From Treponema sp. (GTDB lineage: Bacteria; Spirochaetota; Spirochaetia; Treponematales; Breznakiellaceae), in NCBI GenBank assembly GCA_031265825.1, contig JAISCD010000019.1, forward strand, positions 1 through 20,225: a DNA stretch of 20,225 nucleotides. The letters run 5' to 3'. Positions 4,783-20,225 of the stretch are shown here, piece after piece. Within the stretch, counting starts at the first letter, position 1; the number at the start of each line of letters is the position of its first letter. Both the position numbers and the translations under genes were made by a program. The notes below the pieces were generated by a model, which was not told the origin of the DNA, did not search any database, and saw nothing but the letters and a program-made list of their open reading frames with translations.

Positions 4783-4907
4783 ATGTCCGTCCTCATTTAT
4801 CTCCCCATAAATAATTAAATTGTTAAACAATGTCTCTGGGCGTTGTCAATCAACTGTATCAAATAAATATTCCAGAACTATTTTATTTTTTCCCCGCATT
4901 GCTATAC

Positions 4908-4960
4908 GCCAGACCCCGTTTTCTCAAGCGGGTTGAATGATTGCCGTCTCCGCATTTCCC
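4908..4960 (-). repeat. ~53-bp ghost copy of an internal segment of the endonuclease gene (homolog of 8503-8556), fused in-frame to array A
   Basis: tacgccagacccc(g)ttttctcaagcggRttgaatgattgccgtcYccgcatttcccc is present at both loci. It encodes GEMRGRQSFNPLEK in the endonuclease and GEMRRRQSFNPLEK at the C-terminus of the array ORF. A 1-nt indel then shifts the frame to a stop. Confidence 0.8.
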
Positions 4961-5376
4961 CGTCCACTCTCAAAGACCCGACATCCACTCTCAGAGACCC
5001 GACGTCCTCTCTCAAAGACCCGACTTCCACTCTCAGAGACCCGACTTCCACTCTTAAAGAGCCGACTTCCACTCTTAAAGAGCCGATTTCCTCTCTTTTA
5101 GACCCGACGTCCACTCTCAGAGAGCCGACACCCACTCTCAAAGACCCGACACCCACTCTCAAAGAGCCGATGTCCACTCTCAAAGACCCGACGTCCACTC
5201 TCAGAGAGCCGATTTCCACTCTCAGAGACCCGGCGTCCACTCTCAGAGACCCGACTTCCTCTCTCAGAGACCCGATGTCCACTCTCAAAGACCCGACATC
5301 CACTCTTTGAGAGCCGACATCCACTCTCAAAGAGCCGACGTCCTCTCTCAAAGAGCCGAAATCCACTCTCAGAGAG
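4961..5376. repeat. tandem array A: about 20 imperfect units of 21 bp (consensus tccactctcaRagaSccgacNt)
   Basis: Direct inspection shows strict 21-bp periodicity, with variation confined to a few positions. Each unit carries the palindrome (c)tctcAgaga(g), and many units also contain gacgtc. Both strands are open: + gives DPTSTLR heptads and - gives VGSLRVD heptads. Confidence 0.95.
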
Positions 5377-5384
5377 TAAAATAT

Positions 5385-5430
5385 CGCCGTGCTTTAACGT
5401 TATGCTGTTTTCTGTAGTCTTAATTTTGGG
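5385..5430 (-). repeat. ~46-bp ghost copy of the M1 3'-end / M2 5'-region junction (homolog of 6197-6242)
   Basis: atcgccgtgctttaRcgttatgYtgttttcYgtagtYttaatttt is present at both loci. In the real copy it encodes the last 11 aa of methyltransferase 1, and in another frame KIKTTENNITLKHGD, the N-terminal motif of methyltransferase 2. Confidence 0.8.
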
Positions 5431-5492
5431 CGCCACTTGACGCCTCTTTCTATTGCCGTCAAGGACGGCGGGCGAGACTGAGACTGTTACTT

Positions 5493-6152
5493 CTATAATA
5501 ATGACAATTCCATTGTCGTTTTATTGATCCTATCTTTTGCAATATTAAAATAATTATCATCAATTTCTATCCCAATAAATTTCCTTGCCAATTTCTTTGC
5601 CACTACTCCTGTTGTTCCACTACCCATAAATGGGTCTAAAATTGTATCTCCAATTCTACTACCCAATAATATAATACGCTTTAATAATGTCTCTGGCTTT
5701 TCCGTTGGGTGTTCCGTCAAATGTCTTTCCGCTGGTATTTCCCAAAGATTTTTCATCTGCTTTCCACCGTTTAATTCTTTTGCGGTATCATAATCAAAGA
5801 AATAGTTTTTTGTTTTGCTTGCAAGCCATATTAATTCAGTTGAAGGCGCAAGGCGATTCTTTGACAATAAAGGAGTAGCGTTCCTTTTAAACCATATAAT
5901 ATCGTTAATAATCCAATAATCAAGTTCTTTTAATAATACGCCAACGGAAGGGTGATTATGCAAGGTCCCAGACACCCATAATGTACCAGTATCCGATAAA
6001 ATCCTTTTACATTCTGTAAGCCACGCCCGATTAAAAGCATGAATATCATCAATAACATCCCATTTCCCTTTATCGCAGGCTACAGGTTTACCATTTTTAA
6101 CCGTAAGAAAACCTGCCCCTGACAAATTATAGGGGGGATCAGCAAAAATCAT
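5493..6152 (-). CDS. beta-class DNA amino-methyltransferase (N6-adenine or N4-cytosine), second methyltransferase of the R-M cassette. The N-terminus is anomalous
   Basis: Motif IV DPPYN lies at the N-terminus and motif I DPFMGSGTTG near the C-terminus, the beta permutation of the N6_N4_Mtase family. The gene is AT-rich. The conserved N-terminal segment is encoded upstream of the only ATG, which suggests an indel in the A-run at 6189-6193. Confidence 0.8.
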   Translation of the reverse strand: MIFADPPYNLSGAGFLTVKNGKPVACDKGKWDVIDDIHAFNRAWLTECKRILSDTGTLWVSGTLHNHPSVGVLLKELDYWIINDIIWFKRNATPLLSKNRLAPSTELIWLASKTKNYFFDYDTAKELNGGKQMKNLWEIPAERHLTEHPTEKPETLLKRIILLGSRIGDTILDPFMGSGTTGVVAKKLARKFIGIEIDDNYFNIAKDRINKTTMELSLL

Positions 6153-6211
6153 ATCTATACTTTTATCGGGAATATCTTTAATAAGAGTAAAAACATCGCC
6201 GTGCTTTAGCG

Positions 6212-7072
6212 TTATGTTGTTTTCCGTAGTTTTAATTTTAGACGCTCCTTTGCAACAAGAATATACTGTTCGTTTTTTTCAATGCCAATCCAATGGCGGT
6301 TTAATTCTTTCGCAACTTTCCCTGTTGTCCCTGTTCCGAAAAATGGATCCAGCACTATATCATTTTCATTCGACGATGCTTTAATAATTAACTCTAATAG
6401 TTTTTCCGGTTTTTGCGTCGGATGAACCGCACGCCCATTTGTTCCCTTAATGCGTTCTTTTCCCTGAACAATAGGTATTTCGATAAAATCAAAAAAATCA
6501 CGCATTTGCTTGCTATCACCATCTTTTGTCTTATGTGGGTTAAATTCTTTAACCTCGTTGTAATTAAAAATCCAATTTTTGCCTTTAACAAACCAGCACA
6601 CAAATTCCGTAGAATGGGTAAAAGTTCGTTTTGTAATATTTGGCATAGCATTAGTTTTATACCATGTTAAAATATTATTGAGTTTGAAGCCTACCTTTTT
6701 CCCTTCAATAAGAATTTCGCCGATATTATGTTGAGTACATGAAATATACAAACTGCCATTTGGCAAAAGAATCTTATGGCAAGCCTTCAACCAAGTTGCC
6801 GTGAACGTTACATAATCGAGATAATTAAAAGTATCCCAATCCTCATTCATTTTGTAATATGCACCACCAGTTTTGTTGTTTTTCAAATCAAGCGGCTTAC
6901 CGGATAAATTATAAGGCGGGTCGGCAAACACAAGATTTATTGAGTTTTCTTGTATTTGGGTTTCGAGTATTTGTACACAATCGCCTTGTATAATTTGATT
7001 AAGTGGTAATTTATGCGACAAGGGATATACCCCATTTGTTAATGATAGTCGGAATATTTGCCAACCAATCAT
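6212..7072 (-). CDS. beta-class DNA amino-methyltransferase (N6-adenine or N4-cytosine), first methyltransferase of the R-M cassette
   Basis: N-terminus IIQGDCVQILE...SINLVFADPPYNL (motif IV) and C-terminal VLDPFFGTGTTGKVA (motif I). The ATG at 7072 overlaps the endonuclease 3' end by 62 bp. An in-frame TTG near 7022 would reduce that overlap to 8 bp. Confidence 0.85.
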   Translation of the reverse strand: MIGWQIFRLSLTNGVYPLSHKLPLNQIIQGDCVQILETQIQENSINLVFADPPYNLSGKPLDLKNNKTGGAYYKMNEDWDTFNYLDYVTFTATWLKACHKILLPNGSLYISCTQHNIGEILIEGKKVGFKLNNILTWYKTNAMPNITKRTFTHSTEFVCWFVKGKNWIFNYNEVKEFNPHKTKDGDSKQMRDFFDFIEIPIVQGKERIKGTNGRAVHPTQKPEKLLELIIKASSNENDIVLDPFFGTGTTGKVAKELNRHWIGIEKNEQYILVAKERLKLKLRKTT

Positions 7073-8822
7073 CGGATTTTGTGAGTTCCTTCGATGATAA
7101 AACTATCGATTCAAACAATTCTTGTATCTTTTTATGCGATAGAAAATAGTCTTTGTTTTGTTTCTTTGCATCGAATAAATACTGTAATATTTCAATAAAC
7201 TGCTGAATAGTGATAGGAACGATGTTTTGTTTTTGTCCCTCATATTCATATTTTACGGAAAACCAAAAGGTGTTTCTGGTATCACGGTGGATTTTAGGAG
7301 CGACAAAAAGGCAATATGATTGTTTTTCATTATGCATCGCTTCAAAGTCTCTAAAATGCCGCATCACAGGCTGTCCTTCGTTAAACCATTGCGAACGGCT
7401 GGTTAATAATGTTACTTCACAGATTGAATTAAATGCTTGATAAAAACATTCAATGTCTGGTTTATTTGCCGGCGCGGTAAAGGTTGGCACATTGTCATCG
7501 CCTACAGGATAATTAGGATGAATTTCCAGCGCATCATTTAGGGCGTGTAAGCCGCTGGTAATAATTCGTTCCAATTCAACGGGCTTTTTACCAGCGAGTT
7601 TATGAATATTCTTTAAGTTAGTTATACAACTCTTTATATTTTCCAGTAATTGTAATTCCGCATGAACGCTTGCATCTGATAATTTGCGTCGATAGGAACG
7701 CAAATTTTCAATAGTCTTTTTTAGTGTAGTAGCATTATCATCTTTAGGTTTTATCTGCGGCATTTTGGGAAGGCTAATGCCTTTTGCTTTCATTATGTAC
7801 TCGGTTGTTTCAATGTCGGCGACTAATAATTTAATAACTTCCTGTAACTTCGTTTTATTTTCCCATGGCAATTCTGGCTGTGTAGCATCTCCTAAATACG
7901 TTGAGTATTCTGCTTTTAACGCGAATGTTTTTGCCGATGCGTTATCTGTTTCGATAATTGAATCAATCTCTATTTTTCGTCGCGGCTCTAGATCAATATA
8001 ATAATCATTTCCACGCAGATAAAAAAACCGAGTAAGGTGGAAGTTGCGTATTACATTATCCGCATAGTCTTTTGCGTTCCCCCATGACTCGTATTCGGAG
8101 AAATACTTATAAAAATATTCTTCCGCAAACTTTTCTATGCTTTCAGCAATTTTTACCTTTTGATAATCATTGCGGAATTTTAATATCTTTTCTGCCGTCT
8201 CTTCAATGTTTACATAGCTTGATAATGTTGTAAAGAACAAAGCGAATTCTATTTTTGATACGCCTTTTTCTTTTATACCTTGTCCAGCGCAAAGCGTATT
8301 TACTTTTTTAATTAAATGAAATGTAGCAATAAGTGGTTTAATATTGTAACCATCTTCTGCGGAATATTTATTCAGGTCAGGGTTGGGATATTGCCATTTA
8401 AGGAAACTACGAAAAAAAATATCGCCTAAATCGTAATTTTCGGATAAAAAAGCCTGTCCAAATGTGGTAACTTTTATTTTCTTTTCCGTATCAATATACG
8501 CCAGACCCATTTTCTCAAGCGGATTGAATGATTGCCGTCCCCGCATTTCCCCACCGCCTTTATAGTTTTTAGCGTTCAGTATTTCTTCCGCTTGTTCGTA
8601 GGTAAATGTATCGGAATGAAGCCATTCAAAGTGTTTTTTAGTTAATGTTTTTTCAAATTCGGGAATATTTATTCCGTATATTTTTCTCTGAAGCAGTAAT
8701 ATTTGGTAGCATTTCTGAGTTTCATCATTCCAAACTTCCCCCTCCAATTCCTTAAAAACCTTCAAGAAGGTACGTATCCGCTCGGGGTTTCTAACAGTTG
8801 TTGATATAGACCAAAGTCTCAT
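7011..8822 (-). CDS. putative type IIS restriction endonuclease, AlwI / N.BstNBI / PleI / MlyI-like (603 aa)
   Basis: A large ORF sits immediately upstream of, and co-oriented with, two strand-specific beta-class methyltransferases. That is the typical layout of a type IIS R-M system. Its size matches AlwI-family enzymes (~560-610 aa). Segments LKWQYP, PDIECFYQAFNSICEVT, QPVMRHF and YCLFVAPKI resemble AlwI-family (RE_AlwI) landmarks as I recall them. This was not verified by a search. A GAGGA RBS is present. Confidence 0.6.
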   Translation of the reverse strand: MRLWSISTTVRNPERIRTFLKVFKELEGEVWNDETQKCYQILLLQRKIYGINIPEFEKTLTKKHFEWLHSDTFTYEQAEEILNAKNYKGGGEMRGRQSFNPLEKMGLAYIDTEKKIKVTTFGQAFLSENYDLGDIFFRSFLKWQYPNPDLNKYSAEDGYNIKPLIATFHLIKKVNTLCAGQGIKEKGVSKIEFALFFTTLSSYVNIEETAEKILKFRNDYQKVKIAESIEKFAEEYFYKYFSEYESWGNAKDYADNVIRNFHLTRFFYLRGNDYYIDLEPRRKIEIDSIIETDNASAKTFALKAEYSTYLGDATQPELPWENKTKLQEVIKLLVADIETTEYIMKAKGISLPKMPQIKPKDDNATTLKKTIENLRSYRRKLSDASVHAELQLLENIKSCITNLKNIHKLAGKKPVELERIITSGLHALNDALEIHPNYPVGDDNVPTFTAPANKPDIECFYQAFNSICEVTLLTSRSQWFNEGQPVMRHFRDFEAMHNEKQSYCLFVAPKIHRDTRNTFWFSVKYEYEGQKQNIVPITIQQFIEILQYLFDAKKQNKDYFLSHKKIQELFESIVLSSKELTKSDDWLANIPTIINKWGISLVA

Positions 8823-8931
8823 ATATTCCTCATTATTATCATAAAGTTTTTATTTGTCCTTTATAATTTTCCCTTCAATTCATCAATTTCACTAATTAGT
8901 AAAGCAAAAACATTCTTATTTAATGAGTATC

Positions 8932-9245
8932 TTAATTCTCAGAGAGCCAACATCCACTCTCAGAGAGCCGATGTCCACTCTCAGAGACCCGTCATCCACT
9001 CTCAGAGACCCGATTTCCACTCTCAAAGAGCCGACATCCATTCTCAAAGAGCCGACGTCCACTCTCAGAGAGCCGATTTCCACTCTCAGAGAGCCGACTT
9101 CCACTCTCAAAGACCCGACGTCCTCTCTCAGAGACCCGACGTCCTCTCTTTTAGTCCCGACGTCCACTCTCAAAGAACCGACATCCACTCTCAGAGAGCC
9201 GACATCCACTCTCGGAGACCCGACGTCCACTCTCAAAGAGCCGAC
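8932..9245. repeat. tandem array B: about 15 units of the same 21-bp repeat (consensus tccactctcagagagccgacRt), in direct orientation to array A
   Basis: Direct inspection. The core palindrome ctctcAgagag (5-1-5) is cleaner here than in array A. On the minus strand the array lies 94 bp upstream of the endonuclease start codon. Confidence 0.95.
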
Positions 9246-9286
9246 GTCGGGTCTTTGAAAGTGAGTGGATACTCTCTGAGTATCCG
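9226..9286. repeat. terminal inverted repeat unit and hairpin pair closing array B
   Basis: The last unit is followed by its own near-exact reverse complement (ctcaaagagccgac|gtcgggtctttgaaag). A perfect 8-3-8 palindrome ggatactc-tct-gagtatcc follows, and it embeds the repeat core in inverted form. Confidence 0.7.
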
Positions 9287-9311
9287 ATACCGCGTTCTCG
9301 ATGGGTGCAGG

Positions 9312-10067: not shown

Positions 10068-10574
10068 ATGAAAAATTATTTTAGGTTTACGCTGTTGGTT
10101 CTCGTTGTTTTCTTTTCATTTCTGTCTTGTGAAGGTCTAACGATTGCTACGGTTGATTTTGATTATAATAAATTCAAAATTGAAAGATCGGCTTGGGAAA
10201 ATTCAAGCCCGCTTAATTATCAATATAAGTTATCAAATAGTGGCGGGGGAGAATATGTTCCCATTAACACTTTAATTATTGTTGAAAATGGACAATTTAA
10301 AGAACAAACTCCTCTTTCGGAATATGGAGAAGCAGGGGAAAATTATCAAACAATACATAAAGTTTACGAAACAATAGAAGATATTTATCAAAGATATAAT
10401 AATACCCAGCAATCTAAAAAAGATTTTTATTTAACAAAAATAAAAATAGAATATGATTCAAATCATGTTCCTCTAAAAACAGAGTATTATTATTACATTC
10501 CTCCATATTTAATGGATATGAGCACGTATTGGCGCTACGAAATAGAAAATTATAAAACAAATAGTAATGAGTAA
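10068..10574 (+). CDS. putative lipoprotein (168 aa), AT-rich
   Basis: GAAGGAG RBS. Signal peptide MKNYFRFTLLVLVVFFSFLSC ends in a lipobox-like FLSC with Cys at +1. The mature part is Tyr/Asn-rich and low in GC. No homolog recognised. Confidence 0.6.
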   Translation: MKNYFRFTLLVLVVFFSFLSCEGLTIATVDFDYNKFKIERSAWENSSPLNYQYKLSNSGGGEYVPINTLIIVENGQFKEQTPLSEYGEAGENYQTIHKVYETIEDIYQRYNNTQQSKKDFYLTKIKIEYDSNHVPLKTEYYYYIPPYLMDMSTYWRYEIENYKTNSNE

Positions 10575-10589
10575 TGAGGAAAGATGGGC

Positions 10590-11068
10590 GGGTGCCGCGG
10601 GTGTCAGAGACGTGAGGTGGCGGAGTAGGCGATGTCTGCGAGTGTCAGACGTGCGAGTTTTTTGGGGGTGGCGGAAGACCCGCGCAAGCGGGTCTGGAGA
10701 CAGGGGGGCGCACCGCAAGGGCGTCTGTGTGCCGTCCTCCGTTTAAGGAAAGACGCGCCCCCCTCATACAGAGAACAAATAGTAAAGAGCAGAGAGCAAT
10801 TAGTAAAGAGCAAAGGAAGAAGAGCCGTCCGAGGTGCAAACTGGGCGGCGCTTCGAGTGTCAGACATAAACAACGAATAGGCTCCGCTTGCTTGCAAGCG
10901 CACCCTTCGGGTGTTTTAAAGCGTCCTGCCTCGCCGTGCGTGTGGATTACCGAACATCGCGGAGGTTCCGCTTGCAAGGCAAGCGTAACCGTCCTGTCGG
11001 GGTCAGCGGCACACCCTTTCAAACAATAACCCGTGTGAAGTATTTAAACACCCGTTGGGTGTTTTTTT
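10590..11068 (+). repeat. GC-rich structured repeat element, copy L (inverted partner of 13152-13625)
   Basis: It aligns as a reverse complement with 13152-13625 over ~450 bp. It contains GTGTCAGAGAC and GTGTCAGAC palindromes, several stable hairpins, and an internal AGTAAAGAGC micro-repeat block. It ends in a perfect rho-independent terminator. The last ~20 codons of mazG are read from it on the opposite strand. Confidence 0.85.
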
Positions 11069-11915: not shown

Positions 11916-13151
11916 ATGAATACAGCATTAGAAAACCTGAGAGCCCGAGGATTTTTTCGGCAATGTACAGACGCGGAGCGGTTGTCCGCGCTCATGGACG
12001 AGGGTCCTGTTACGTTTTATGTGGGGTGCGACCCTACGGGATCGAGTCTTCACATCGGACACATGGTACCGTTTTTTGCGTTTCGGCACTTGCGCGCCGC
12101 GGGTCATCGTGGAATAGCCCTGATCGGCGGCGGTACGTCCCGCATCGGGGATCCTTCTGGCAAAACGTCCATGCGTCAAATGCTTGATTACGAGAAATTG
12201 GACGAAAACGCCGCTTCTATTACAAGGCAATTGGATGCTTTCTTGAACTTTGACGGACAAAATGCCTTCACCGCCAACAATAAGGATTGGCTCGCGGAAC
12301 TTAATTACATTGATTTCCTGCGCGATATAGGGAGGCATTTCTCTGTCAATCGTATGCTTTCCTTCGAGGCTTATCGTCTCCGTATGGAAACCGGGCTTTC
12401 GTTTCTTGAATTCAACTATCAGTTATTGCAGAGTTACGATTTCCTGCAATTATTCCGTAAACACGGGTGTCGTCTTCAGATAGGCGGGGATGATCAGTGG
12501 GGCAATATTGTCGCGGGTTCGGACTTGATTCGGCGGATTGACGGCGCGGAGGTGTTTGGTCTCACGTTCCCGCTTATCACCACAGCGGACGGCAAGAAGA
12601 TGGGCAAGACCGAGAAGGGCGCGCTCTTTCTTGACCCGTCTATCACTTCGCCTTATGACTTCTTCCAATATTGGCGGAATGTTCAGGACGCGGATATTAG
12701 GCGTTTCCTGCTCATGTTCACGTTTCTCTCTGTCGAAGAATGTACGGCTCTTACTGCGGAGGGCACGAGTCCCAACAACGCGAAGGAAAGGCTTGCCTGG
12801 GAGGTAACGGCTCTCATACACGGGAGGGATGCGGCGAATCGCGCGCTTGCCGGCGCACGCGCGAGTTTCGGCGGTTCGGGTGGCGATAAGTCCGCGGTAC
12901 CGACCGTCTCTCTTGCTATGGATAAGTTCGACGCGGGTTATAACATCGTCGATTTGTTCACAGATGCGGGGCTTTGTTCCACGAAGAGCGAGGCGCGGCG
13001 TCTTGTCCAGCAGGGCGGCGCATTTGTGAGCTGTGACGACGAGGGGTTCGTAGCCATAACGGATCCGAAAGCCGTGGTGGGTTTTTCAGAAGAATTGGTT
13101 CTTCGTGCAGGCAAGAAGCGCACCCTTCGGCTGCACCCGAAGGCTGTTTAA
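11916..13151 (+). CDS. tyrS: tyrosine--tRNA ligase
   Basis: Class I motifs HIGH (SLHIGHMVPF) and KMSKS (KKMGKTE) are present. A C-terminal S4-like domain ends the protein. It is divergent from mazG with a 64-bp intergenic gap, too short for a T-box leader. Confidence 0.95.
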   Translation: MNTALENLRARGFFRQCTDAERLSALMDEGPVTFYVGCDPTGSSLHIGHMVPFFAFRHLRAAGHRGIALIGGGTSRIGDPSGKTSMRQMLDYEKLDENAASITRQLDAFLNFDGQNAFTANNKDWLAELNYIDFLRDIGRHFSVNRMLSFEAYRLRMETGLSFLEFNYQLLQSYDFLQLFRKHGCRLQIGGDDQWGNIVAGSDLIRRIDGAEVFGLTFPLITTADGKKMGKTEKGALFLDPSITSPYDFFQYWRNVQDADIRRFLLMFTFLSVEECTALTAEGTSPNNAKERLAWEVTALIHGRDAANRALAGARASFGGSGGDKSAVPTVSLAMDKFDAGYNIVDLFTDAGLCSTKSEARRLVQQGGAFVSCDDEGFVAITDPKAVVGFSEELVLRAGKKRTLRLHPKAV

Positions 13152-13625
13152 CGACTTCACACGGGTTGTTGTACGAAAGGCGGACCCGCTGTCCCCGCAC
13201 CCTTCGGGTGTTGGACAACTTCACAATGGTTGTTGTTTGAAAGGTTGACCCGCTGACCCCGTCTTGACGGTTACGCTTGTCTTGCAAGCGGAACCTGCTC
13301 GTTGTTTATGTCTGACACCCGAAGCACACCCGAAGCGCCGCCCGGCTTGCACCTCGGACGGCTCTTCTTCCTTTGCTCATTGCTCATTACTAACTGCTAA
13401 TTGCTCTCTCCCCTCTGCTAACTGCTAACTATTCATTACTCACTAGTATGAGGGGGGCGCATCTTTCCCTAAACGTGATTGGCACACAGACGCCCTTGCG
13501 GTGCGCCCCCCTGTCTCCAGACCGCCCCCGCGTGGCGGGTTTAAAAGGGGCGGTCTTCCGCCACCCCCCAAAACTTGCACCTCTGACACCATCGCCTCCG
13601 CCCGCCTGCCGGTGCCTACCCGCCG
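13152..13625 (-). repeat. GC-rich structured repeat element, copy R (inverted partner of 10590-11068)
   Basis: Reverse-complement alignment with copy L. It starts exactly at the tyrS stop. It contains a tandem internal duplication of a ~47-bp module (13154-13200 and 13215-13262), an expanded TTAGCAG-type micro-repeat block, and a hairpin whose stem sequence differs from L while staying complementary. Confidence 0.85.
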
Positions 13626-13676
13626 TCCGTCTTTCCTCTTTGCTATCTGCTTTATTATTTGCTCTTTTTTATTTGG

Positions 13677-13890
13677 TGTCAGGCATCGCCCCGAAACTCC
13701 GCCCTGTGCCTGCGGTGTCAGACATCGCCTTACTCCACCGCCCGGCGTGGTGTCAGTCATTATACTTTTATGTCTGCGTACCGGGGGTGCGGCGGCGTGC
13801 GTGCGGTGTCAGACATGGGCTATTCAGCGTGGTGTCAGACACTATACCTGCGTATCGGGACATAGGCTTATTACGGCTAGGTGTCAGACA
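13677..13890 (+). repeat. row of six direct GGTGTCAGACAY palindromic motifs spaced at 30-57 bp
   Basis: Motif starts at 13677, 13716, 13750, 13807, 13837 and 13881, all in the same orientation. The core GTGTC-A-GACAC is a 5-1-5 palindrome. Confidence 0.85.
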
Positions 13891-14172
13891 TCTTGTCTTA
13901 ACTCTGCGCCATCTTGTCTTAACTCTGCGCCATCTTGTCTCAACTCTGCACCATCTTGTCTCAACTCCGCGCCATCTTGTCTCAACTCCGCTCCATCTTG
14001 TCTTAACTCTGCTCCATCTTGTCTTAACTCTGCTCCATCTTGTCTCAACTCTGCGGCATCTTGTCTCAACTCTACGCCATCTTGTCTCAACTCTGTCGTA
14101 TCTTGTCTTAACTCTGCGCCATCTTGTCTCAACTCTGCGCCATCTTGTCTCAACTCTATGGCATCTTGTCTC
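13889..14172. repeat. tandem array C: about 13.5 units of a different 21-bp repeat (catcttgtctYaactctgcgc)
   Basis: Direct inspection. The array is bracketed on both sides by GTCAGACAT motifs. The left boundary forms a 5-3-5 palindrome agaca-tct-tgtct. Confidence 0.95.
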
Positions 14173-14189
14173 TGTCAGACATCGGGACT

Positions 14190-14282
14190 ATGTTTGGGGA
14201 GGGGGTAGCGTAAGACCGATCCTTTTAAACCAGCTACGCGGGGGACGAGCTGGAGACAGGGGGCGCACCACAAGGATATGAG
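14190..14282 (+). repeat. third, partial copy of the element core (same orientation as copy L)
   Basis: aagaccgatccttttaaaccagctacgcgggggacgagctggagacagggggcgcaccacaagg matches the L/R core (ggcggaagacc...ctggagacaggggggcgcaccgcaagg). Confidence 0.7.
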
Positions 14283-19790: not shown

Positions 19791-20225
19791 AGGCGTTGTG
19801 GTGCCAGACACCCGCGAAAGTGCCAGACACCAGCGCCTAGCCCCCGTGCCCTGACCCCGCCCGCCCGTCTTTCCTTTGCTAACTGCTAACTGCTAATTGC
19901 TAACTGCTCTCTGAAAAAAGGCGTTATGGTGCCCGCGAGGGCGTTGCGGTGTCTGACACCAGCGCCTAGCCACCGTGTCCTGCCCCCGCCTGCCCGTCTT
20001 TCCTTTGCTACCTGCTACCTGCTAACCACTAACTGCTACCTGCTCTCTGCTAATTGCTAACTGCTCTCTGCTAACTGCTCTCTGAAAAAAGGCGTTATGG
20101 TGCCAGACACCAGCGCCTAGCCCCCGTGTCCTGCCCCCGCCCGCCCGTCTTTCCGTTGCTAACTGCTCTCAGCTAACAGCTCTCAGAAAAAAGGCGTTGT
20201 GGGGACAGAAACCCGCGCCCAGCCG
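19791..20225 (+). repeat. composite tandem repeats of 123, 171 and 102 bp, with a fourth truncated by the window end. Each holds a variable block of CTGCTAA/CTGCTAC heptamers
   Basis: Units start at ~19791, 19914, 20085 and 20187. The module order is aaaaaaggcgttRtggtgcc-agacacc-agcgcctagcccccgtgYcctgMccccgccYgcccgtctttcc-(ttgcta + heptamer x3-10)-ctctctg. The first modules are related to 13575-13680 of element R. Confidence 0.9.

What the first reader, a model, noticed from the sequence alone, without database searches (positions are those of the whole stretch)
13677..13890. Iteron-like row of six direct GGTGTCAGACAY palindromes leading into a tandem array
The six copies of a 5-1-5 palindrome GTGTC-A-GACAC share one orientation and sit 30-57 bp apart. 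They are immediately followed by a 21-bp tandem array. The same motif occurs at 10605, 10649, 10858 and 13312 in the L/R elements, and at 19808, 19827, 19945 and 20104 in the window-end repeats. The density and orientation look like a binding-site cluster, regulatory, centromere-like or origin-like, rather than random recurrence.
Basis: seen in the sequence. Interest (0 to 1): 0.6.

Follow-up and report, generated by a model that had tools for sequence, protein, structure and literature searches.

The report
Transposase-end repeats clustered between genes
The row of six GGTGTCAGACAY sites is a strain-variable pile-up of a short mobile-DNA end sequence, the same sequence that brackets a family of IS200-like (Y1/HUH) transposase genes in many bacteria; it is not a replication origin, centromere or operator array.

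Summary
Six same-strand copies of GGTGTCAG-N-CAY lie at 13675-13891 and run into a 21-bp array at 13889-14172. GGTGTCAG occurs 10 times in the window against 0.31 expected.

The window is chromosomal DNA of a termite-gut Treponema, in the spacer between tyrS and an SPFH gene. A sister strain (genes 93-96% identical) has one motif copy where the window has six, and 6.5 array units against 13.5. More distant relatives have no repeats there. The row is therefore dispensable and hypervariable.

The 13-bp palindrome GGTGTC(A/T)GACACC is the conserved core of intergenic clusters in about 40 bacterial taxa. In four candidate-phyla-radiation (CPR) lineages the exact 13-mer flanks a Y1_Tnp gene on both sides. 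In 55 of 78 homologous loci, GG[GT]G[TA][CG]A[GC] lies 33-54 nt upstream of the start codon. This matches the published TIRtron/TIRYT class, whose TIR consensus is GGGGWSAS.

The best reading is a REP/BIME-like cluster of TIRYT-type end repeats. The 21-bp array appears to be built from the right half of the same element. The cognate transposase was not found in the host DNA available, so that link is inferred.

I found no origin, partition or regulator features. I file it as a new member of a known kind, of moderate-to-low interest.

The parts
13675..13686 (+). Row copy 1, GGTGTCAGGCAT (variant at position 9)
13714..13725 (+). Row copy 2, GGTGTCAGACAT. This is the only row copy with a moderately stable ssDNA hairpin (-4.4 kcal/mol).
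13749..13760 (+). Row copy 3, GGTGTCAGTCAT (variant)
13805..13816 (+). Row copy 4, GGTGTCAGACAT
13831..13842 (+). Row copy 5, GGTGTCAGACAC, the only perfect 5-1-5 palindrome
13880..13891 (+). Row copy 6, GGTGTCAGACAT. Its last bases (CAT) and the following CTTGTCT form the first unit of the 21-bp array. It corresponds to the single left copy in sister strain L123 (position 8799).
13889..14172 (+). 21-bp tandem array, 13.5 units, consensus CATCTTGTCTCAACTCTGCGC. Each unit begins with (C)CATCTTGTCT, the right half plus arm of the extended Treponema palindrome GACAAGGTGTCWGACACCTTGTC. The sister strain has 6.5 units.
14171..14182 (+). Partial motif copy tcTGTCAGACAT closing the array on the right. 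The sister strain has an intact GGTGTCAGACATC here.
13578..13590 (-). Degenerate motif copy (GGTGTCAGAGGTG on the - strand). It heads a long unit of GC-rich segment, then TTTCCTCTTTGC, then an A/T-rich tail, which resembles the window-end units.
13308..13319 (-). Motif copy in the R mosaic downstream of tyrS
10600..10611 (+). Motif copy GGTGTCAGAGAC in the L mosaic downstream of mazG
10640..10652 (+). Variant copy GAGTGTCAGACGT in the L mosaic
10856..10867 (+). Variant copy AGTGTCAGACAT in the L mosaic, the inverted partner of 13308-13319
19800..20225 (+). Window-end tandem units of about 130-150 bp. Each starts with GGTG(C/T)C(A/T)GACACC (19800, 19819, 19948, 20099), and one starts with GGGGACAGAAACC (about 20201), which fits the published GGGGWSAS TIR consensus. 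Each unit continues with a GC-rich segment, TTTCCTTTGC and TGCTAAC heptads.

Best explanation
The row is a BIME-like cluster of short REP/TIR-type repeats. The repeat core, GGTGTCAG(N)CAY (ideal form GGTGTC(A/T)GACACC), is the terminal inverted repeat of 'TIRtrons'. These are elements whose gene encodes a RAYT-like Y1 (HUH) tyrosine transposase, called TIRYT or TnpA_REP subclass 2.1. The published TIR consensus is GGGG[AT][CG]A[CG].

Shown here:
- The exact 13-mer brackets such genes in inverted orientation in several lineages.
- Related variants bracket most homologues.
- The motif is the only part shared among heterogeneous intergenic arrays in about 40 taxa.
- In this Treponema the locus differs between near-identical strains by indels whose ends are motif copies.

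Inferred:
- A TIRYT encoded elsewhere in the host genome recognises these ends. By analogy with IS200/IS605 and RAYT enzymes it would act on single-stranded DNA. It seeded the copies.
- Recombination or replication slippage between the 12-13-bp direct copies then duplicated or deleted 'motif + spacer' units. This made the row.
- The same process acting on the right half of the element plus its arm (CATCTTGTCT + 11 nt) made the 21-bp minisatellite.

The cluster sits 3' of tyrS, as REP-like elements usually sit downstream of genes. I could not test any effect on the host, such as mRNA 3'-end hairpins or the -35-like CTGACA inside the motif.
For: Motif enrichment in the window.

Sister strain L123 has one motif copy where the window has six, and 6.5 array units against 13.5. 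Both array ends are bounded by motif copies in both strains.

Genome scan: more than 117 stretches in about 42 taxa. The scan carries its own control. Of the four variants the pattern allowed, the palindromic one makes up 82% (taxon-normalised). The unspecified 13th base is C in 66% of sites, which completes the palindrome. Nothing beyond that is conserved.

The motif lies between ordinary housekeeping genes, and no neighbouring protein family is shared across loci.

Y1_Tnp genes (Pfam PF01797) are flanked on both sides by the exact 13-mer in L176, L207/L208, L213/L214 and L215/L216. In L207 the stop codon lies inside the downstream copy (GGT GTC TGA).

In 55 of 78 homologous loci, GG[GT]G[TA][CG]A[GC] lies 33-54 nt upstream of the ATG. 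Chance is about 1.5% per flank.

Homologues on plasmids of R. rubrum, P. aeruginosa, Iodobacter and Sporomusa are flanked by TIRs that start GGGGTCAG or GGGGACAG. The R. rubrum TIR, GGGGTCAGACCCC, is a compensatory variant of the palindrome.

Tandem half-TIR arrays lie next to many TIRYT genes. The window's 21-bp unit starts with the right half of the extended Treponema palindrome seen in L093.

Literature: PMC3733652 (TIRtron/TIRYT, GGGGWSAS, clustered and self-complementary TIR families) and PMC6006769 (subclass 2.1).
Against: No Y1_Tnp gene is present in the 20-kb window, in the sister contig, or in any of the seven termite-Treponema MAG blocks fetched. The cognate enzyme in this host is therefore unproven.

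The window motif has T at position 3 where the published consensus has G. All exact-motif TIRtrons found here are from CPR bacteria, not spirochaetes.

Four to five of the six row copies have a degenerate right half and do not fold as hairpins. They may be fossils rather than active ends.

All six copies point the same way, whereas REP doublets are usually inverted.

Both contigs are metagenome assemblies, so part of the length difference could be an assembly artefact. Against that, the row spacers are unique sequence.
Confidence: 0.7

Rival explanations
1. It is a plain decaying minisatellite. An ancestral unit of about 37-50 bp that happened to begin with GGTGTCAGACAY was amplified by replication slippage or unequal crossing-over and then diverged. 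No dedicated enzyme is or was involved at this locus.
For: Units 1 and 2, and units 3 and 5, resemble each other beyond the motif. Copy number differs between strains. A true 21-bp minisatellite lies directly next to the row. Most row copies are degenerate.
Against: This does not explain why the octamer is invariant while the spacers are unrelated and of five different lengths. It does not explain why the same core heads quite different units elsewhere in the window. It does not explain why the identical 13-mer is the conserved core in about 40 other taxa and flanks transposase genes. Slippage probably does contribute as the amplification step, so this rival overlaps the main model.
Confidence: 0.18
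2. It is an operator or decoy array for a sequence-specific transcription factor, for example an RHH or GntR-type dimer that binds the 13-bp palindrome. It would regulate the downstream SPFH operon or titrate the factor.
For: The palindrome is typical of a dimeric DNA-binding protein. In three viral/MGE contigs, two or three motif copies sit in divergent promoter-like spacers, in one case between two RHH genes. In TIRtrons the upstream copy lies just before the TATAAT box of the transposase gene. A -35-like CTGACA plus AATAAT promoter-like match sits at 13682-13654 on the - strand.
Against: Five of the six sites are absent in a sister strain that has the same flanking genes. No regulator gene is nearby. 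Relatives that do carry a GntR gene here lack the motif. Arrays of up to 26 copies lie between unrelated housekeeping genes in other genomes. RHH genes sit next to the motif in only 1 locus among all those examined.
Confidence: 0.07
3. It is a set of iterons of a replication origin, or a partition centromere, of a chromosome, plasmid or integrated element.
For: It has directly repeated sites in one orientation next to a tandem array, which is the formal architecture of iterons, sopC or parC.
Against: The flanking genes are housekeeping genes syntenic with other Treponema (mazG, tyrS, SPFH, M18 peptidase). There is no rep, dnaA, parA/B or parM/R gene. There is no DnaA-box cluster. The region is 57% GC and shows no skew turn. 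The spacing is irregular (26-56 bp). The row is absent in the sister strain. The motif is dispersed over several spacers.
Confidence: 0.02

Closest known systems
TIRtron / TIRYT terminal inverted repeats (Di Nocera et al. 2013, PMC3733652; TnpA_REP subclass 2.1 of Quentin et al. 2018, PMC6006769)
   Same: The terminal octamer is of the GGGGWSAS type (here GGTGTCAG; one window-end copy is GGGGACAG). Inverted copies bracket a Y1/HUH transposase gene at fixed distances. Some TIR families are multi-copy, extragenic, self-complementary and clustered. All of these features were observed here in related loci.
   Different: The window motif has T at position 3. The cognate gene is not seen in this host. 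The invariant 13-bp palindrome is spread over about 40 taxa and grows into arrays of 12- to about 50-bp period. In the papers I could read, only moderately abundant TIR families in a few genomes are reported.
REP / BIME / REPIN elements mobilised by RAYTs (E. coli, Pseudomonas)
   Same: They are short extragenic palindromes, mostly 3' of genes, in clusters with variable spacers. They are associated in trans with a single-copy Y1 transposase and are polymorphic between strains.
   Different: The window motif has no GTAG or CGTC tag. The palindrome is much shorter (13 bp against 20-40 bp). The row copies are all direct rather than inverted doublets.
BrickBuilt and PgRS MITEs of Porphyromonas gingivalis (Klein et al. 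2015, PMC4596501)
   Same: A minisatellite of about 21-23 bp units is embedded between conserved flanking modules. The elements are intergenic and vary in copy number between strains.
   Different: The sequences are unrelated. Their TIRs are of the IS5 type (GAGACCTTTGCA), and the presumed mobilising enzyme is a DDE transposase.
Neisseria intergenic mosaic elements (dRS3 repeats flanking RS units)
   Same: A short conserved inverted-repeat element punctuates variable 50-150-bp units, forming intergenic mosaics. This resembles the window-end units and the row.
   Different: The dRS3 sequence (ATTCCC-N8-GGGAAT) is different. It belongs to the CGTC class, which has no dedicated transposase. This comparison rests partly on my own knowledge.

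Membership tests
TIRYT-associated TIR repeats (TIRtron class) | Terminal motif fitting GGGG[AT][CG]A[CG] | tested here: met
   The window octamer GGTGTCAG matches 7 of 8 positions. The same GGTGTCAG variant is the upstream TIR of 13 of the 55 TIRYT-like genes that carry the element. The exact 13-mer flanks L176, L207/8, L213/4 and L215/6. The window-end copy GGGGACAG fits 8 of 8.
TIRYT-associated TIR repeats (TIRtron class) | Inverted copies flank a Y1/HUH transposase gene in the same genome | not testable with these tools
   There is no Y1_Tnp in the window, the sister contig or the Treponema MAG blocks. The feature was shown only in other lineages.
TIRYT-associated TIR repeats (TIRtron class) | Multi-copy, extragenic, arranged as dimers or clusters | tested here: met
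   There are 10 exact octamers, all intergenic, in four spacers. Short-read contigs of the same organism break at the repeats.
TIRYT-associated TIR repeats (TIRtron class) | Self-complementary end able to form a hairpin | tested here: inconclusive
   The canonical form folds at -8 kcal/mol (z = -4). Only one row copy (-4.4) and one of the window-end copies (the only one folded) fold appreciably.
REP/BIME (RAYT, GTAG-tagged) | Unpaired GTAG (or CGTC) tag next to a 20-40-bp imperfect palindrome | tested here: not met
   The bases 5' of the six copies are TTT, TGC, CGT, TGC, CGT and CTA, so no tag is present. The palindrome is 13 bp.
Iteron-type replication origin | Adjacent rep/dnaA gene, AT-rich unwinding element, DnaA boxes, regular iteron spacing | tested here: not met
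   spacing is 26-56 bp; the region is 57% GC.
Partition centromere (parS/parC/sopC) | Adjacent parA/parB or parM/parR genes; one site per replicon; conserved between strains | tested here: not met
   No par genes are present. The motif is dispersed. The row is absent in the sister strain.
BrickBuilt MITE | 23-nt repeat with leader and tail and IS5-type TIR GAGACCTTYGCA | tested here: not met
   The unit is 21 bp with a different sequence, and no such TIR is present.

The most novel reading that the evidence does not exclude
GGTGTC(A/T)GACACC may be a pan-bacterial, essentially invariant end sequence of one TIRYT lineage. It is found from CPR bacteria to Achromobacter/Bordetella, Actinomycetota, Acidobacteriota, Myxococcota, Bacillota and termite Treponema. 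In this reading it repeatedly seeds intergenic minisatellites with periods from 12 to about 50 bp, and it is still active enough in Treponema to produce differences between strains. That would be a family of REP-like elements that the papers I could read do not describe, defined by a 13-bp core conserved across phyla.
Probability: 0.4. Interest if true: 0.55.

Novelty: new member of a known kind. Interest (0 to 1): 0.35.

Why it matters
It removes a false lead: this is not an origin or a centromere. It also explains why assemblies of these termite-gut Treponema break at intergenic spacers.

More broadly, it ties a 13-bp palindrome seen in clusters across about 40 bacterial taxa to the ends of TIRYT-type Y1 transposase elements. 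That class has been little studied since 2013-2018 and has no biochemistry.

If the link holds, the exact-motif TIRtrons give a compact substrate-enzyme pair for testing how TIRYTs recognise DNA. Each consists of a gene of about 225 codons and two 13-bp ends. The arrays would also provide natural markers for strain typing.

Tried and rejected
Rfam search at gathering threshold and at E<=5 on the window, and at gathering threshold on 12 motif-rich loci, gave no family. There are no tRNA or tmRNA genes.

BrickBuilt/PgRS MITEs were my first guess because of the minisatellite, but the sequences and TIRs are unrelated.

A full-text search for the motif string found only primers and similar unrelated hits.

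I looked for a protein family recurrently encoded next to motif clusters by all-against-all BLAST of 4403 ORFs. Only generic ABC ATPases and GGDEF proteins recurred.

Integron-like cassette idea: the genes flanked by motifs are housekeeping genes.

RHH operator idea: RHH genes adjoin the motif in one viral contig only.

GntR idea: relatives carry a GntR gene downstream of tyrS, but the window holds no remnant of it and those relatives lack the motif.

An E. coli RayT/IS200 tblastn hit in L027 turned out to be a LysR gene.

L109 was the lead that pointed to Y1_Tnp, but its own upstream element is GGGGATAAGCCCC. Its two downstream motif copies may therefore belong to another element, and I do not count it as a cognate pair.

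The row spacers have no copies elsewhere in any sequence held.

Coding reading: ORFs across the row and array have no credible Pfam match, and the 205-bp indel is not a multiple of three. Some hits of the genome scan are true coding repeats (L091 KPAVPDT heptads, L014 VSDT, and the giant ORFs of L003 and L041). These are false positives for this family.

Full report
**Observation.** The sequence at 13675-13891 holds six copies of GGTGTCAG-N-CAY on the + strand. They start at 13675, 13714, 13749, 13805, 13831 and 13880, with spacings of 39, 35, 56, 26 and 49 bp. Only the copy at 13831 is the perfect palindrome GGTGTCAGACAC. The invariant part is the octamer GGTGTCAG. Tandem Repeats Finder gives a 21-bp array at 13889-14172 (13.5 units, 90% matches). 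Its first unit overlaps the last motif copy, and its right end is closed by a partial seventh copy at 14171-14182. The motif with up to 1 mismatch occurs 13 times in the window against 0.16 expected. The octamer occurs 10 times against 0.31 expected. All copies are in intergenic mosaics: L at 10556-11061, R at 13134-13523, the row itself, and the tandem units of about 130-150 bp at 19800-20225.

**Context.** The window is chromosomal. It carries htrA-like, mazG, tyrS, SPFH, M18 aminopeptidase and Fumble-type kinase genes and an AlwI restriction-modification island. TyrRS is 100% identical to a JGI protein on a contig of 20225 bp, which is this window. It is 74-77% identical to Treponema primitia and Breznakiella and to many termite-gut Treponema MAGs. 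I found no rep, dnaA or par gene and no tRNA. There is no Rfam family even at E<=5, no DnaA-box cluster near the row and no turn in GC skew, and the region is 57% GC. ORFs that run through the repeats have no credible Pfam match.

**Comparison of strains.** A sister contig (L123) is syntenic, and its alignable blocks, mostly genes, are 93-96% identical in DNA. At the same place it reads ...tttatttgGTGTCAGACACcttgtcttaa..., then 6.5 array units, then ...gtctatgGTGTCAGACATcggg.... It therefore has one motif copy where the window has six, a difference of 205 bp whose ends are motif copies. It has half as many array units, and the array is bounded by a motif copy on each side in both strains. Relatives at 86-87% TyrRS identity have short spacers with no repeats, and in two of three cases a GntR gene instead. 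The row is thus dispensable and evolves fast. That excludes an origin or centromere and argues against a conserved operator array. One caveat is that both contigs are metagenome assemblies. Against misassembly, the five row spacers are unique sequence.

**The motif elsewhere.** These include Achromobacter/Bordetella (many loci), Gaiellales/Thermoleophilia, Myxococcaceae, Vicinamibacterales, Aminicenantes, Acidaminobacter, Bifidobacteriaceae, Planctomycetota, Ferruginibacter, Paceibacteria and seven termite Treponema or Spirochaetaceae MAG contigs.

Because the search itself selects for the pattern, I used controls built into it. Of the four variants the pattern allowed, the palindromic GGTGTCAGACAC makes up 82% after normalising by taxon. 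The unspecified 13th base is C in 66% of sites, which completes GGTGTC(A/T)GACACC. No position beyond that is conserved.

Within these genomes the 13-mer is the constant core of arrays with very different periods: 16, 21, 23-24 and 35-52 bp. It also occurs as single sites between ordinary housekeeping genes. A few hits are true coding repeats and are false positives (L091, L014, L003, L041). No protein family recurs next to the clusters. Only three viral contigs carry close pairs.

**Identity of the motif.** A tblastn with E. coli RayT picked up a Y1_Tnp gene (PF01797, E = 1e-13) in L109, followed by two motif copies. Its homologues form a large family of proteins of about 200-225 aa with the HUH motif (HWH) and the YIERNP tyrosine motif.

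In 80 metagenome loci encoding them, 55 of 78 with enough flanking sequence carry GG[GT]G[TA][CG]A[GC] 33-54 nt upstream of the start codon. Chance is about 1.5% per flank. The inverted copy follows the stop codon, often with tandem arrays of half-elements such as CCCCATTT... or CACCGTTT....

The exact 13-mer brackets the gene on both sides in L176, L207/L208, L213/L214 and L215/L216, whose proteins are 79-88% identical to the L176 protein. In L207 the stop codon lies inside the downstream copy (GGT GTC TGA). In L215 a 95-aa passenger ORF lies inside the element.

More distant homologues (about 30% identity) on plasmids show the same plan. The R. rubrum gene lies between AAGGGGTCAGACCCCTT and GGGGTCTGACCCC, which is a compensatory T:A to G:C version of the palindrome. 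The P. aeruginosa, Iodobacter and Sporomusa termitida genes have TIRs that begin GGGGACAG or GGGGTCAG.

This is the class described by Di Nocera et al. 2013 as TIRtrons encoding TIRYTs. Its TIR consensus is GGGGWSAS, and some of its TIR families are multi-copy, self-complementary and clustered. Quentin et al. 2018 equate it with TnpA_REP subclass 2.1, which is present in 14.9% of the strains they surveyed.

**Link between row and array.** In the termite Treponema MAG L093 the element is the 23-bp palindrome GACAAGGTGTCWGACACCTTGTC, and in L012 it is AAAA(C)GGTGTCAGACACCATTTTTT. The window's 21-bp unit begins (C)CATCTTGTCT, which is the right half of the core plus its arm. The array therefore looks like a tandem half-TIR array of the kind seen beside TIRYT genes. 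The row consists of left-anchored 'motif + spacer' units. Units 1 and 2 repeat the first 35 nt or so of the long GC-rich unit seen at 13578-13675 and at the window end.

**Mechanism, and how much of it is shown.**

- Shown: the motif is a transposase-end sequence of the TIRYT class.
- Shown: it is dispersed and clustered extragenically in this genome.
- Shown: the locus changes by motif-bounded indels between strains.
- Inferred: a TIRYT encoded elsewhere in the host recognises the ends. By analogy with IS200/IS605 and RAYT enzymes it would act on single-stranded DNA.
- Inferred: amplification into a row and a minisatellite is by recombination or slippage between the 12-13-bp direct copies.

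**Weak points.** No Y1_Tnp gene was found in any Treponema sequence I could reach. Most row copies have a degenerate right half and do not fold as hairpins. All six copies are in direct orientation.

**Verdict.** The row is a new member of a known kind, REP/TIR repeats of Y1 transposases. The one less expected aspect is that the 13-bp core is identical across many phyla.

Noticed in passing
window 4881-9300: The low-GC (33-37%) AlwI restriction-modification island (two N6_N4 methylases at 5493-7072, endonuclease at 7011-8822) is bracketed by two related 21-bp arrays (4961-5375, about 20 units; 8937-9248, about 15 units). An 80-bp fragment of the endonuclease gene (8473-8552) is duplicated at 4881-4961. 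The sister strain L123 has the same island, but the ORFs of its two methylases differ in length.
   Followed up: partly
window 13452-13572 (also about 10658-10763 inverted, and 14198-14275 partial): A 121-bp element capped by GGGGGGCGC...CCACCCCCC is present here but is cleanly absent from the sister strain (cactagtatga|acttgcacc). It looks like an insertion polymorphism of a separate MITE-like family. Its copies form the 44-nt inverted repeat that brackets the row and the array.
   Followed up: partly
window 13374-13444, 19877-19908, 20006-20079; L123 8585-8700: Heptamer tandem repeats (TGCTAAC/TGCTACC/TGCTCAT)n follow TTTCCTTTGC in each long unit. The sister strain has a much longer run of about 16 units. 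They recall cyanobacterial STRR heptamers.
   Followed up: no
window 10556-11061 and 13134-13523: mazG and tyrS, which are divergently transcribed, are each followed by the same mosaic of about 400 bp in inverted orientation. The mosaic includes terminator-like hairpins (ACACCC-TTCG-GGTGT) and a 64-nt unit that is duplicated in tandem at 13134-13261.
   Followed up: partly
L213-L216 (CPR metagenome contigs): Exact-motif TIRtrons sit inside the ribosomal-protein operon between rpsH (S8) and rplE (L5). In L215/L216 the element also carries a 95-aa passenger ORF. In L213 a second motif pair brackets a 67-aa ORF.
   Followed up: partly
L207 3667-3679; L213 2233-2245: The transposase reading frame ends inside its own downstream TIR (…GGT GTC TGA), so the last two residues and the stop codon are encoded by the recognition sequence.
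   Followed up: yes
L120 3802-3838, L121 7815-7945, L122 4041-4123 (IMG/VR contigs): Two to four motif copies lie in promoter-like divergent spacers of mobile elements: next to a RecT/YqaJ module, after an FtsK/TraB-like gene, and between two ribbon-helix-helix genes. The motif may double as an operator there, or these may simply be further insertions.
   Followed up: partly
L091 1200-1740: In a Spirochaetaceae MAG the variant GGTGTCTGGCACC recurs every 21-24 bp inside an ORF that encodes KPAVPDT-like heptad repeats and starts MEEAAARF. This appears to be a coding counterpart of the 21-bp arrays.
   Followed up: no
L124 2916-3344, L126 5604-6062: Relatives at 86-87% TyrRS identity carry a short GntR/YtrA-type regulator gene downstream of tyrS (in L124 directly upstream of the SPFH gene). 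The window lineage has lost it, or never had it, and holds 1.8 kb of repeats there instead.
   Followed up: yes
window 13682-13654 (- strand): The reverse complement of the motif contains CTGACA. Together with AATAAT 17 nt downstream, it gives a 10/12 sigma-70-like match pointing leftward out of the row.
   Followed up: no
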